Below are positions 1 through 51,389 of a stretch of DNA of 64,000 nt, piece by piece. The notes under the pieces were generated by a model. The model saw nothing but the letters and a program-made list of their open reading frames with translations. It was not told the origin of the DNA and made no database searches. Both the position numbers and the translations under genes were made by a program. Position 1 is the stretch's first letter. Every line of letters begins with the position of its first letter. The DNA comes from Eledone cirrhosa (lineage: Eukaryota), in NCBI GenBank assembly GCA_964016885.1, contig OZ024741.1, forward strand, positions 394,134,001-394,198,000, given 5' to 3'.

Positions 1-1180
1 CCATAAGTGCAGTAAATTCCCGAGCTGTGTCTATTATTAGGTACAGTGCGGGAATTCTGAGATGGAATGTTGCTGAACAAAAAGAAATGGATAGGAAGAC
101 TAGGAAGCTATTGACTATCTACAACATGTTCCACAAGAGGAGTGATGTCGATAGACTCTACTTAAGGAGATCTGAAGGTGGAAGAGGTCTTATCAGCATA
201 GAGGACTGTGTTCAGATGGAGAAAAACAACCTACACAAATACGTGACTTATAGTAAGGAGCCAATGCTCAGAACTGTACTGAAGGAGGGGACAATAGGCC
301 AGGGGATGTCCAAGGAGGAAATAACATCAAGGAGAAAGAGCAGCCTTCAGGAAAAATCCCTTCATAGTACCTTCTTTGAGAAAACTGAATTTAGAGAACC
401 ACAGACATGGAACTGGTTGAAAAGAGGAGACCTTAAATAGGCTACAGAAGGAATGTTAATGACTGCGCAGGAGCAGGCCCTCAAAACGAAGTGGTTGAAA
501 CACCATATTTACAAGGAGGAGACTAGCCCACTGTGCAGGATCTGTGGAGAGAGAGAGGAGACTGTGACTCACATTGTATCCGAGTGTAAACACCTAGCCC
601 ATACTCACTTTAAGGGCTGGAGACATGATGTCATGGGCAGGGTGATCCACTGGCACCTATGCAAAGTAAACAATTTACCACATTCTGAGAAGTGGTATGA
701 GCATATCCAGAGTCGGTGATAAAAAACGATCAGGTGAAGGTGCTGTGGGATTTTAGGATACAGGCGGACAAGAAACTGGAACACAATAGACCTGACCTGG
801 TGGTTGTGGACAAAGGAAAAAGATCGTGCCTAATTGTGGATGTGGCCTGCCCATTCGACACGAGAGTGCAAGAGAAGGAGAGGGAGAAAATTAACCGATA
901 CCAGGACTTAAAGTGGGAGGTAAAAAGGATTTGGAACTGCCATGAAGTCAAAGTGATCCCGTATGTCATAGGCGCACTAGGTACTATCTCAAAAAGTTTC
1001 CAGGGATGGTTAAAGAAAATTGGCCCCTACACGCTTTTGGAATGCTTCAAAAGGCATGCTTGCTGGGAACAGCAAGAACCCTCCGATACGTCCTGAATAT
1101 CTGAGGCTGCAGGTAGTGGCTTGATATTCATTTCAACAAACTTTCCAGTTAACTAACATCAATGGCTGAGACTCAAAGAG
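1..1180 (+). mobile_element. R4/Dong-clade RLE LINE (family Dong-TAA), 3' part; continues left of window
   Basis: RT thumb [20 protein letters not shown] knuckle [18 protein letters not shown], restriction-like endonuclease HNRPDLVVVD..IVDVACPFD; stop and frameshifts; ends in (TAA)n at 1181-1211. Confidence 0.9.
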
Positions 1181-1211
1181 TAATAATAATAATAATAATA
1201 ATAATAATAAT

Positions 1212-3613
1212 GATTTCTTTATTGGCCACAAGGGCTGACATCAAGAAAAACATCACAGACGGAACAGGACGGTACGATGTGGGTTTTGTGCGTGTAAATA
1301 TTTTTATTATTTATATAAGAAAAGAAAAAAGACATAAAACATATATATATAAACAATAAAAGGAAAATTGAAACAATGAAAAATTCCCCAATAGGGGGGA
1401 AGCCTCCGAGGGTTACTCGTGGCGAAAACCACACAAAAGACCACGGCCACCCTGACTACCAGGGCAAGCGCCCTCTCTCAATTTTTCCATCTCTCAAACT
1501 ACAGACGTATATTCAGAGTGGTCTCGTTCACTCGGACCATTCTCGGTACATTCACCCACCTTTCAACAAACTTGCTAGAAAGCAGCACTTGCCTCTCCAT
1601 CCTGATTTTCCTCTTCAAGTGAAACTTGAAAAAGTTAATCAGGGATTCGCCGAAGAGGAAAGTGTGTGTCTTTAATCCGTTTAACCTTGTCCACCACACA
1701 ATCTCTTTCGCCATGGCCACCAGGCAGATGAAAACCGCCTGCCCTTCCTCCTCAAAGGAAGACGGCGAGACCATCTGCACAATGGACTCAGTCGACAACC
1801 GGATCAGTCCCACACGTGACAGCAACTGTTCGACATAGCTCCACAAGTCAGCAATGCTCGGGCACTGAACAAGTGCGTGCACAACGGTTTCGTCGCTATG
1901 CGCGCATCTCGGACAGGCTCGGCTGACGGCACTTCCGTGCCTGTAGAGCTTATCTCGAACCGGCAGCGCTCCCCGGTAGCACCGCCAGGCCAGGGATTTT
2001 TGGAAGTTATCCATAGGCCCCGGGTTGAAAGTTCTCCGGAAGAGAGCAAGCAGCTGATCTTCTTCGACGCCCAGGATCTCTCCGAGAACGTCGTCGCTCT
2101 TCCCCTCCACTAGTCCTCTATAGAGCGCCGAGGTGGATGTTCCACCGATACTGGTGCCCAACTGGGAGAGGGAAGTGAACGCCTGGAGACATTCCAGTTT
2201 CCAAGCGCTATCCCTCGGTCTTTTTCTGACCCAGGACTGCAGCTCCGTCAAGGAGACGAGCTGTGGGAAAATGTGCCTGGCGAACGGCGACCACACCCGT
2301 TCACCATCAAGGAAGCACCAGTGATGTCGCAGCCTCAGCGCATGCTTGCGCATCATCAGCCATGGCATGCCCAGTCTTCCACACAACGGGTGTTGACAGC
2401 AGATGGATCGTCTGACCATGGGAGCGCGTCCTTTCTACAAAAAGCGGAAGAGGAGGCGCTCCATTTTGGTGAGAGTTGGGCTGGAGCAAGGGACGACGGT
2501 GAGGCGGTAGCAGATGACGGATACGATGTAAGCATTCGCCACTTCCGCCCGACCTTTCAGGGACAGCTTCCTCTCAGCCCATTTCTGGGTGAGGGAGGCC
2601 ATCTTGCTCGTCACCTCGTTCCAGTTTTTCTCCATCTGGAGGTCCGGTCCGAACCAGACCCCGAGGAATTTAACCGGTCCGTCCGTCCAACGCCCCACGA
2701 CGCTGTCGGACGGCATGGACTTGCCTCTCCAGGTGCCTAGCTGCAAGCCCACCGACTTTTCCTGGTTTATCTTTGCTCCTGTCACCGTTTCGTATGAGAT
2801 CGGTGTCGAGCATCTTGACGTGTCTGGTGCTCGACACCACCACGGTGACGTCGTCAGCGTAAGCCGACTCGGATTTCCTGCATCCTAGTTCGCGTGGGAC
2901 GCCCCTCATCGCCCCCAGTTTGTGCAGTAACGGCTCGAGAGCCAATACGTACAAGAGGGACGAGAGGGGACAACCCTGGCGGACTGAGCGCATGAAGCTG
3001 AACGGCTGCGACATGTGACCGTTCACCCTCACAACTGAGCAGATGTCGCTGTACATTGCTGCGATCCAACGCCTGAAAACGGGCCCGAAACCAGCTGCCT
3101 CGAGGACCGCCGCCAGGTACCGATGGTCGACCCTATCGAATGCTTTGGATTGATCCAAGTTGATCCAATTGATCCAAGTTGATCTAAGTTGATCCAAGTT
3201 GCCAGGTTCCTTAACCACCCTCTCTATGATGTATCGCATGAGGTGGAGGTTGTCGTGTATGGATCTGTGCGGGATGGCGCATGTCTGCGCCTCTCCCACC
3301 AGACCCTTGACGACAAGCGCCAACCTCGTTGCTAACAACTTGGCCAAAATCTTGAACTCTGCGTTTAGCAGGGTTATGGGCCTGAAATTATCAATAACAT
3401 CCCCCTTGTTCTGGTCTTTTCTCAGCAGCGCCACTGTTCCTCGCTCACAAAACTGGGAATGCTCCCGTTCTGCTGCCAGTTGCAGTAGACGTCTGCCAAG
3501 AGGTCACCGAACAAGTCTGGCATAAATGCATAAAGCTCGTAGGGTAGACCATCTAAACCTGGCGATTTGCCTCTTGTGCAGTTAGCCATCGCTTCCCGTA
3601 TTTCACCGGCTGT
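1212..3613 (-). mobile_element. Tx1-clade (L1 group) LINE, 5'-truncated, subfamily a
   Basis: RT motifs NFRPITLLN, LDQSKAFDRVDH, RQGCPLS, AYADD; C-terminal CPRC..ETVVHALVQC; 3' end AATAAAGAAATC then (ATT)n; TAA repeats on both sides. Confidence 0.9.
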
Positions 3614-3631
3614 TATAATAATAATAATAAT

Positions 3632-50091: not shown

Positions 50092-50142
50092 ATTATTATT
50101 ATTATTATTATTATTATTATTATTATTATTATTATTATTATT

Positions 50143-51189
50143 GTTCTTTGAGTCTCAGTCATTGATGTTAGTTAACTGGAAAGTTTGTTGAAATGAATAT
50201 CAAGCCACTACCTGCAGCCTCAGATATTCAGGACGTATCGGAGGGTTCTTGCTGTTCCCAGCAAGCATGCCTTTTGAAGCGTTCCAAAAAGCGTGGCGGG
50301 GCCAATTTTCTTTAACCATCCCTGGAAACTTTTTGAGATAGTACCTAGTGCGCCTATGACAATCGGGACCACTTTGACTTCATGGCAGTTCCAAATCCTT
50401 TTTACCTCCCACTTTAAGTCCTGGTATCGGTTAATTTTCTCCCTCTCCTTCTCTTGCACTCTCGTGTCGAATGGGCAGGCCACATCCACAATCAGGAACG
50501 ATCTTTTTTCCTTGTCTAAAACCACCAGGTCAGGCCTTTATAGTGAGTCTGGGCTAGGTGTTTACACTCGGATACAATGTGAGCCACAGTCTCCTCTCTC
50601 TCTCCACAGATCCTGCACAGTGGGCTAGCCTCCTCCTTGTAAATATGGTGTTTCAACCACTTCGTTTTGAGGGCCTGCTCTTGCGCAGCCATTAGCATTT
50701 CTTCTGTAGCCTTTTTAAGGTCTCCTCTTTTCAACCAGTTCCATGTCTGTGGATCTCTGAATTCAGTTTTCTCAATGTAGGTACTATGAAGGGATTTTTC
50801 ATGAAGGCTGCTCTTACTCCTTGTTGTTATTTCCTCCTTGAACATCCCCTGGTCTATTGTCCTCTCCTTCAGTACAATTCTGAGCATTGGCTCCTTACTA
50901 TCTGTCACGTATTTGTGTAGGTTGTTTTTCTCCCTCTGAACACAGTCATCTATGCAGATAAGACCTCTTCCACCTTCAGATCTCCTTAAGTAGAGTCTAT
51001 CGACATCACTCCTCTTGTGGAATATGTTGTAGATAGTTAATAGCTTATCAATAAGTAACTGGTCCTTTGTACCACGGGACTTCTTTCGGCATCCTTTCTG
51101 TTCGTCCGGTAACAAGTTGTTTGTGTGGAGGTGATGGTAGATTTCCTCCGACATAATGCTTGTGAACAGTTTCCACATTAGGGACAGAT
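50143..51189 (-). mobile_element. Dong-TAA copy, 5'-truncated, two internal deletions
   Basis: Colinear with 41663-43645 except jumps at ~50535 and ~51045; ATT repeats on both sides. Confidence 0.9.
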
Positions 51190-51389
51190 TATTATTATTA
51201 TTATCATTGGTTTGTTCGGACGTTCTTTTTCTCGCTCCCAGTAAGTCGCTTTATTTACCTGTTATAATTATTTGTTGTTTAATTTTTCTTGCTGTGTAAT
51301 GGATATAAGCCCTTGAACTTTGCCCTGTGAAGAGGAAAATATAATATTTGATTAATATTTGAACATTTTACTTAAAAAAAAAAAAACCC

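What the first reader, a model, noticed from the sequence alone, without database searches (positions are those of the whole stretch)
1..51200. Two paired microsatellite-targeting retrotransposon systems, each joining an RLE LINE tail-to-tail with an APE LINE
Seen: Dong-TAA meets a Tx1 3' end tail-to-tail across (TAA)n three times (1181-1211, 41649-41662, 50092-50142). Dong-CATA meets an RTE-type 3' end tail-to-tail across (CATA)n three times (9290-9340, 27457-27473, 31803-31829). The pairings never cross. Known: Dong elements target TAA repeats, and several Tx1 families are sequence-specific. Inference: Tx1 and RTE insertions use and lay down repeat tails, two R4-clade lineages each specialise on one tail type, and this builds self-extending retroelement landing pads.
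Basis: partly seen in the sequence, partly recalled or inferred. Interest (0 to 1): 0.72.

Follow-up and report, generated by a model that had tools for sequence, protein, structure and literature searches.

The report
Retrotransposons share microsatellites, not partners
Several unrelated jumping-gene families sit in two short DNA repeats (TAA and CATA), each family on a fixed strand, so tail-to-tail meetings likely arise from sharing a landing repeat and not from partnership, and one family of the CATA group carries TAA repeats inside itself that the TAA group has entered.

Summary
All six junctions are real, and they are independent insertions, not copies of one duplication. The 'paired systems' reading fails. 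Each family has the repeat at its 5' junction too: Dong-TAA 17/30, Tx1 6/22, Dong-CATA 32/36, RTE derivative 20/30, against 0.2-0.6% at random (6% for TA/TATG). So the repeat is a shared target entered from opposite strands. Dong-CATA meets an RTE-type 3' end at background rate: 15/59 against 11/43 (p=1). Two of its three window partners are non-autonomous RTE derivatives. Dong-TAA meets Tx1 in 24/59 against about 20%, but head-to-head and Dong-Dong junctions are about as common (12, 12, 15 of 160 tracts). A no-partner accretion model reproduces this. The systems also cross: the window's left TAA array lies inside an (ATT)n tract in an RTE 5' UTR, and 23/150 long TAA tracts lie in this RTE's UTRs. 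Targets not found in the papers searched: CATA for Dong, ATT for Tx1, TATG/TA for RTE. The scan found both systems before on other DNA of this genome.

The parts
1..1180 (+). Dong-TAA1 3' part (5'-truncated copy starting about 70 bp before the window, head-to-head with a full Tx1 there)
1181..1211 (.). (TAA)10 junction, Dong 3' to Tx1 3'
1212..3615 (-). Tx1 subfamily A, 5'-truncated, (ATT)n at both ends
3616..3630 (.). (TAA)5 between two Tx1 copies, head-to-tail, no Dong
3631..4275 (-). Tx1 subfamily B 3' fragment
4276..4851 (-). 5' UTR of RTE2 with its internal (ATT)n tract; outer wall of the nest, RTE2 body lies 5.8-9.6 kb upstream of the window
6581..8431 (-). RTE2 5'-truncated copy; (CATA)14 at 8432-8488 is at its 5' junction
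8896..9289 (+). Diverged Dong-CATA 3' fragment (89% to the young copies)
9290..9340 (.). Degenerate (CATA)n junction
9342..22319 (-). Eight copies of a bipartite non-autonomous RTE1 derivative (9342-9950, 10680-11279, 11633-12239, 15949-16181, 16287-16545, 16658-17060, 21335-21940, 21954-22319), mostly separated by TA/CATA tracts; also an RTE2 derivative (20776-21284) and another RTE (about 17149-19830)
23273..27456 (+). Full-length Dong-CATA with stops, (CATA)n at both ends
27457..27473 (.). (CATA)4 junction
27475..27826 (-). Non-autonomous RTE1 derivative, 5'-truncated
29291..31802 (+). ORF-bearing RTE1, lacking its 5' part
31803..31829 (.). (TGTA)7 junction, RTE1 3' to Dong-CATA 3'
31830..34085 (-). 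Dong-CATA 5'-truncated, RT-CCHC-RLE frame open; (TATG)14 at 34086-34141 is at its 5' junction
41092..41648 (+). Tx1 3' fragment, different subfamily
41649..41662 (.). (ATT)n junction
41663..45551 (-). Dong-TAA1, internally deleted, with an (ATT)-tailed SINE (45112-45217) in its 5' region
45563..50091 (+). Tx1 subfamily A, near full length (5' end and about 580 bp missing), head-to-head with the Dong before it
50092..50142 (.). (ATT)17 junction
50143..51188 (-). Rearranged, 5'-truncated Dong-TAA1, (ATT)n at both ends
51189..51350 (+). (ATT)n plus the head of a further Tx1 subfamily (head-to-head junction)

Best explanation
Several LINE families sit in (TAA)n or (CATA)n tracts on a fixed strand, likely because each family's own endonuclease cuts that repeat on one strand, so tail-to-tail junctions likely follow from shared targets and not from partner recognition. 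Dong-TAA1 and Dong-TAA2 read TAA on their sense strand, and Tx1 subfamilies and a SINE read ATT. Dong-CATA reads CATA, and RTE1, RTE2 and their derivatives read TATG or TA. Shown: the repeat lies on both sides of copies. Inferred: each insertion splits a tract in two and adds a landing site, so arrays grow and all four junction types appear. Shown: RTE2 carries (ATT)n tracts in both UTRs, and these have been entered by Dong-TAA and Tx1. Inferred: RTE2 spreads TAA landing sites into CATA/TA regions, which would help explain why both systems share this window. Endonuclease specificity itself is untested.
For: 3' ends carry the family's repeat: Dong-TAA1 56/59, Tx1 54/59, Dong-CATA 53/59, RTE1-type end 28/30. 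5' junctions visible in the loci carry it too: 17/30, 6/22, 32/36, 20/30, against 0.2-0.6% at random positions (6% for TA or TATG); ORF-bearing RTE1 16/21, read by eye. Of 160 long TAA tracts: Dong3'|Tx1 3' 15, Dong|Dong 12, Tx1|Tx1 7, head-to-head 12; Fisher p=0.24. A simulation with no partner preference and 30% of old tracts usable gives P(Tx1 3'|Dong 3')=0.29 and P(Dong 5'|Dong 3')=0.35, against 0.31 and 0.35 observed. Dong-CATA to RTE-type end 15/59 against 11/43 background (p=1.0); reciprocally 0/29 RTE1 and 0/30 RTE1-type ends face Dong-CATA. No co-inheritance across 23 Dong|Tx1 junctions (Mantel rho -0.01, p=0.53). The nest in the RTE2 5' UTR matches an empty copy on both sides; 23/150 long tracts lie in RTE2 UTRs, 4 of them with Dong-TAA1 directly adjacent.
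Against: Dong-TAA1 faces a Tx1 3' end in 24/59 loci against a weighted 20% background (p=2e-4); the excess comes from the 30 loci at the start of contig C1 (16/30), while the genome-wide set gives 8/29 (p=0.35). The simulation's usable fraction was fitted, and it predicts 9% Tx1 ends at tracts with no known upstream neighbour against 17% seen. Only 6/22 truncated Tx1 copies have (ATT)n at the 5' junction by the strict rule, so Tx1 specificity is loose or later rearrangement hides it. The TAA background comes from the first 20-27 Mb of one contig. RTE tails are mixed TA/TATG, so RTE preference is broad. No biochemistry and no empty-site comparison were possible.
Confidence: 0.8

Rival explanations
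1. True partnership: Dong-TAA recognises the Tx1 tail plus adjacent Tx1 sequence, and Dong-CATA recognises the RTE tail.
For: 24/59 Dong-TAA1 ends face Tx1 against about 20%; the table leans to alternation (15:12 against 7:12); the Tx1 and SINE 3' ends resemble each other next to the tract.
Against: No excess for CATA (15/59 against 11/43); alternation not significant (p=0.24); 35/59 Dong-TAA1 and 44/59 Dong-CATA ends have other neighbours; the no-partner simulation gives about 0.3.
Confidence: 0.1
2. The repeats are tails made by the elements themselves (templated by the RNA end or by RT slippage); later elements accumulate passively in tolerant regions.
For: RTE elements are reported to generate microsatellites from repeat 3' UTRs (PMC2887409, abstract); only 6/22 truncated Tx1 copies show the repeat at the 5' junction. 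Tail synthesis may well add to the tracts.
Against: The repeat is at the 5' junction of truncated copies, where a tail cannot explain it: 32/36, 17/30, 20/30, each with the family's own strand. RTE1-type 3' flanks vary between TA and TATG (13 and 15 of 30), as expected if they are target DNA.
Confidence: 0.07
3. The repeated junctions descend from segmental duplication or from co-mobilised composite units.
For: 1181 and 50092 are 97% alike on both sides over 300 bp and their Tx1 ends are each other's nearest among 23 (0.026, next 0.029); 27457 and 31803 are 97% alike.
Against: Over 1.5 kb the 1181 Tx1 is 93.8% to the 50092 Tx1, as is a copy on another contig (93.3%); the Dong at 50092 is identical over 180 bp to a copy with a different Tx1 partner; the 27457 and 31803 partners diverge beyond 180 bp; Mantel rho -0.01.
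Confidence: 0.03

Closest known systems
Dong, DongAg, DongBg and ostracod Dong (R4 clade, (TAA)n-specific; PMC3812793 and PMC7998251, passages)
   Same: Single ORF with RT, CCHC and PD-D RLE motif; (TAA)n at both ends for two families.
   Different: A third lineage, 33% identical to the TAA families and 40-60% to unnamed relatives elsewhere, uses (CATA)n, which these passages do not list; the target is shared with Tx1 from the other strand.
Kibi, Koshi and crocodilian Tx1 families ((TC)n, (TTC)n, (TTCC)n, (TTTC)n; PMC4494074, passages)
   Same: Two-ORF APE-RT elements in a microsatellite, in tandem.
   Different: The repeat is (ATT)n; it is shared with an RLE clade; specificity of truncated copies looks looser.
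SART and TRAS of Bombyx mori in (TTAGG)n (PMC7265360, passages)
   Same: Two families in one repeat in opposite directions, set by the endonuclease.
   Different: Those are two related APE-type telomeric families; here unrelated RLE and APE clades share dispersed microsatellites, twice over.
Bipartite non-autonomous RTEs (Bov-A, RTESINE, WALLSI3; PMC5786205, passages) and microsatellite-tailed RTEs (PMC2887409, abstract)
   Same: 5' UTR joined to the 3' end of an RTE; repeat at the 3' end.
   Different: The repeat is also at the 5' junction (20/30; 16/21), which points to targeting; RTE2 carries another system's target inside its UTRs.
WaldoAg1/2 (ACAY-targeting; PMC3812793, passage)
   Same: ACAT, one reading of ACAY, is the same repeat as CATA.
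   Different: Waldo is APE-type; here the target is used by an RLE element.

Membership tests
R4/Dong clade | One ORF with RT followed by CCHC finger and PD-(D/E) restriction-like endonuclease, no APE | tested here: met
   Intact 1141-aa Dong-TAA1 frame; CxxC-HxxxxC and RPD...D/E motifs align in all three families; best solved matches are R2 proteins
R4/Dong clade | N-terminal Myb/SANT-like domain without zinc fingers (PMC7998251) | tested here: inconclusive
   A conserved W-x-x-E-L-N block aligns in Dong-TAA1, Dong-CATA and four relatives; Pfam gives no Myb hit; no profile or fold test run
R4/Dong clade | RT tree placement with named R4 and Dong elements | not testable with these tools
   No named R4 or Dong sequence among the 120 listed homologs
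Dong (TAA-specific) | Inserted in (TAA)n | tested here: met
   Dong-TAA1: 56/59 3' ends, 17/30 5' junctions
Dong (TAA-specific), applied to Dong-CATA | Inserted in (TAA)n | tested here: not met
   0/36 TAA and 32/36 CATA at 5' junctions; it works like Dong with another target
Tx1 clade | ORF1 plus ORF2 with APE, RT and C-terminal zinc-binding domain, L1 group | tested here: met
   (L1 ORF2p E=2e-52)
Tx1 clade | RT tree placement within Tx1 and not L1 | not tested
Tx1 clade | Target preference (over 20% of flanks, criterion of PMC4494074) | tested here: met
   54/59 3' ends, 6/22 truncated 5' junctions; 15/15 full-length heads in four arrays and the upstream stretch abut the tract, a sample biased by selection
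RTE clade | Single APE-RT ORF and short 3' UTR ending in repeats | tested here: inconclusive
   APE-like and RT pieces in line without ORF1, 556-aa frame starting after the 5' UTR; no intact copy or tree
Bipartite non-autonomous RTE | 5' part from the parent's 5' UTR and 3' part from its 3' end | tested here: met
   Positions up to 432 are 91-98% to RTE1 5' UTRs in 3 of 4 fetched stretches; last 176 bp 94% to the RTE1 3' end
Exclusive RLE-APE pair (proposed) | Partner adjacency above repeat abundance, and no crossing | tested here: not met
   CATA 15/59 against 11/43; TAA table p=0.24; nest inside RTE2

The most novel reading that the evidence does not exclude
One genome holds two parallel cases in which an RLE clade and an APE clade converged on the same microsatellite from opposite strands, with three targets not found in the papers searched (Dong on CATA, Tx1 on ATT, RTE on TATG/TA), and an RTE acts as a mobile carrier of the other system's target, supplying about a sixth of all long (TAA)n tracts through its UTRs.
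Probability: 0.6. Interest if true: 0.6.

Novelty: new variant of a known kind. Interest (0 to 1): 0.45.

Why it matters
Dong-TAA and Dong-CATA are related RLE enzymes with different repeat targets in one genome, so they offer a natural domain-swap test of how these proteins choose targets. Opposite-strand sharing of one repeat by unrelated clades would explain arrays of up to about 100 kb and may underlie some transposon hotspots reported in octopus (PMC13282606, passages; link untested). An RTE that copies another system's target inside its own RNA is a plain route by which one element seeds landing sites for others. The negative result also matters: tail-to-tail junctions are no evidence of partnership.

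Tried and rejected
A DNA search with the RTE derivative's 3' end returned nothing because the words are too common; an exact pattern worked. No whole-genome count of Dong|Tx1 junctions was obtained; shares rest on sampled loci. The random 600-kb sample held only 23 TAA tracts, none next to Tx1; it was too sparse and too rich in short tracts, so long tracts were sampled by three end patterns. Sequences first taken for unknown neighbours proved to be the Dong-TAA1 head, a second Dong-TAA family and Tx1 heads. Locus L433 first seemed to show the derivative's 5' part before an RTE ORF; it was a whole derivative followed by a truncated RTE, so the point was retested with new stretches. Window 45212-45550 was first assigned to Tx1 and is Dong 5' sequence. 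One locus (L114) was moved by eye from 'Dong2' to 'Tx1 3' end'; one hit on a GT repeat was dropped from the RTE2 UTR count (24 to 23). The RTE2 UTR count used 150 of the 160 tracts. Pfam found no Myb domain. No tree with named references could be built. Literature searches found no paper on CATA-targeting Dong or on shared opposite-strand microsatellite targeting; Kojima and Fujiwara 2004 and Repbase were not readable and may hold such families. No supplements were read.
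Full report
Observation. The six tracts lie where stated, each between a Dong-type 3' end and an antisense 3' end. Frame scans and self-comparison gave the window's anatomy. The window is G000:C2:394134001-394198000 in a 3.0-Gb genome. The host is likely an octopod: the only species-named homolog of Dong-CATA is from Argonauta hians (66%), and Dong-R4, L1-Tx1 and RTE are listed as recently active in Octopus vulgaris (PMC13282606, passages).

Who the elements are. Dong-TAA1 (intact 1141-aa frame in an array on C1), a second family Dong-TAA2 (39% to it) and Dong-CATA (32-33% to both) share RT, CCHC and RLE motifs. 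Dong-CATA is 40-60% identical to the full-length unnamed relatives compared, so it is an old separate lineage and not a local switch. The Tx1 elements have ORF1 and an APE-RT-zinc ORF2 and fall into several subfamilies. The CATA partner at 9290 and 27457 is a 606-bp element made of an RTE's 5' UTR and 3' end; eight copies lie between 9342 and 22319. Exact-pattern counts, all lower bounds: 4,734 Dong-TAA1 ends, 10,981 Tx1 ends, 4,174 Dong-CATA ends, 24,299 RTE1-type ends. Long perfect TAA tracts number about 56,000 (28,092 + 16,567 + 11,423 ends).

Tail or target. The family's repeat follows 56/59 Dong-TAA1, 54/59 Tx1, 53/59 Dong-CATA and 28/30 RTE1-type 3' ends. Where the 5' junction fell inside the locus, the same repeat on the same strand precedes 17/30, 6/22, 32/36 and 20/30 copies, against 0.2-0.6% of random positions (6% for TA or TATG). 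Some of the Tx1 and Dong misses look like later rearrangements. ORF-bearing RTE1 copies give 16/21 by eye. So all four kinds insert into the repeat. With Dong on one strand and Tx1 or RTE on the other, any Dong-partner 3' meeting must be tail-to-tail; the geometry carries no information on pairing.

CATA pairing. Dong-CATA 3' ends face an RTE-type 3' end in 15/59 loci (window copy left out; one 15-bp remnant not counted). Background (CATA)4+ tracts do so in 5/24 random and 6/19 unselected cases; Fisher p=1.0. Of the 15 partners, two continue into an RTE2 ORF region, most are derivatives, and three are too short to call. Reciprocally, 0/29 ORF-bearing RTE1 ends and 0/30 RTE1-type ends face Dong-CATA.

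TAA pairing. Dong-TAA1 3' ends face Tx1 3' ends in 24/59 loci (8/29 genome-wide, 16/30 at the start of C1), another Dong in 11, the SINE in 8 and an RTE-type end in none. The weighted background from 160 long tracts is 20% (p=2e-4 pooled, 0.35 for the genome-wide set). In those tracts the four junction types number 15, 12, 7 and 12, and the upstream neighbour does not predict the downstream one (p=0.24). A simulation without partner preference, in which only 30% of old tracts are usable, gives 0.29 and 0.35 where 0.31 and 0.35 are seen. That fraction is fitted, so the model shows sufficiency, not proof. Four arrays picked for Tx1 density, one about 100 kb long, show both Dong families, several Tx1 subfamilies and the SINE in one polarity.

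Duplication. Across 23 Dong|Tx1 junctions the two sides are not co-inherited (Mantel rho -0.01, p=0.53). The window's junctions differ in partner subfamily, truncation point and outer flank. The 1181 and 50092 Tx1 ends are each other's nearest over 250 bp, but over 1.5 kb they are no closer than a copy on another contig.

The systems cross. Twenty kb upstream of the window were mapped. The series full Tx1, Dong, Tx1A, Tx1B, about 10 kb, lies inside the (ATT)n tract of an RTE2 5' UTR. The UTR's start is at window 4276-4851 and the RTE2 body lies upstream; both walls match an empty copy. RTE2 also has (ATT)n in its 3' UTR. Of 150 long tracts checked, 23 lie in RTE2 UTRs (about 18% after weighting by end type), 4 with Dong-TAA1 directly adjacent. 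RTE2 itself sits in CATA/TA repeats (8432-8488). So the one supply link seen here runs across the two systems.

Mechanism. Shown: repeat on both sides, fixed strand, all junction types, independent origin, nesting in RTE2. Inferred from established target-primed reverse transcription and from the SART/TRAS work (PMC7265360, passages): each endonuclease nicks one strand of the repeat, and insertion leaves repeat on both sides, adding a site. Untested: enzyme specificity, and how much of each tract is tail synthesis or slippage.

Comparison. Dong in (TAA)n is known (PMC3812793, PMC7998251, PMC3774820, passages), as are microsatellite-specific Tx1 families (PMC4494074, passages), target-specific RLE clades (PMC4640811, passages), opposite-strand sharing by SART and TRAS, bipartite RTEs (PMC5786205, passages) and microsatellite-ended RTEs (PMC2887409, abstract; PMC9115989, passages). 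Eight searches found no CATA-targeting Dong, ATT-targeting Tx1, repeat-targeting RTE or RLE-APE sharing of a dispersed microsatellite. Kojima and Fujiwara 2004 and Repbase were not seen, and no supplements were read.

Verdict. The junctions are real, the targeting is real, and the exclusive pairing is not supported. New variant of a known kind; interest 0.45.

Noticed in passing
window 59896-61128 (-): A 410-aa open frame with a hydrophobic N-terminal stretch and no Pfam hit; likely a host gene, possibly a membrane-anchored enzyme.
   Followed up: no
window 9342-22319: Head-to-tail run of RTE1 derivatives; several are cut at similar points and 16181-16916 is a 371-bp tandem pair, so local duplication may add to insertion.
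   Followed up: partly
window 38242-38567 and many loci: A ~161-bp SINE with an (ATT)n tail whose last 30 bases resemble the Tx1 3' end; likely mobilised by Tx1.
   Followed up: partly
window 8757-8891; L424, L443: A short element ending in (CATA)n on the Dong-CATA strand, 3 of 26 random CATA tracts; possibly a passenger of Dong-CATA.
   Followed up: no
L211, L214, L231 and others: A frequent unidentified repeat end follows 8 of 30 long TAA tracts of one end type.
   Followed up: no
L105 (G000:C1 near 24.84 Mb): A Tx1 fragment on the same strand as Dong-TAA1, an exception to the polarity rule.
   Followed up: no
window 12330-14370 (-) and 20200-20700 (+): A further RT-bearing LINE fragment bounded by TA-rich tracts, and an old Dong-CATA-like fragment followed by (CATA)19.
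   Followed up: no
window 20790-20860: The RTE2 derivative has a long predicted hairpin with an AT-rich loop at the joint of its 5' and 3' parts.
   Followed up: partly
window 53526-53654 and 53938-54066: A perfect 129-bp inverted repeat, possibly a MITE.
   Followed up: no
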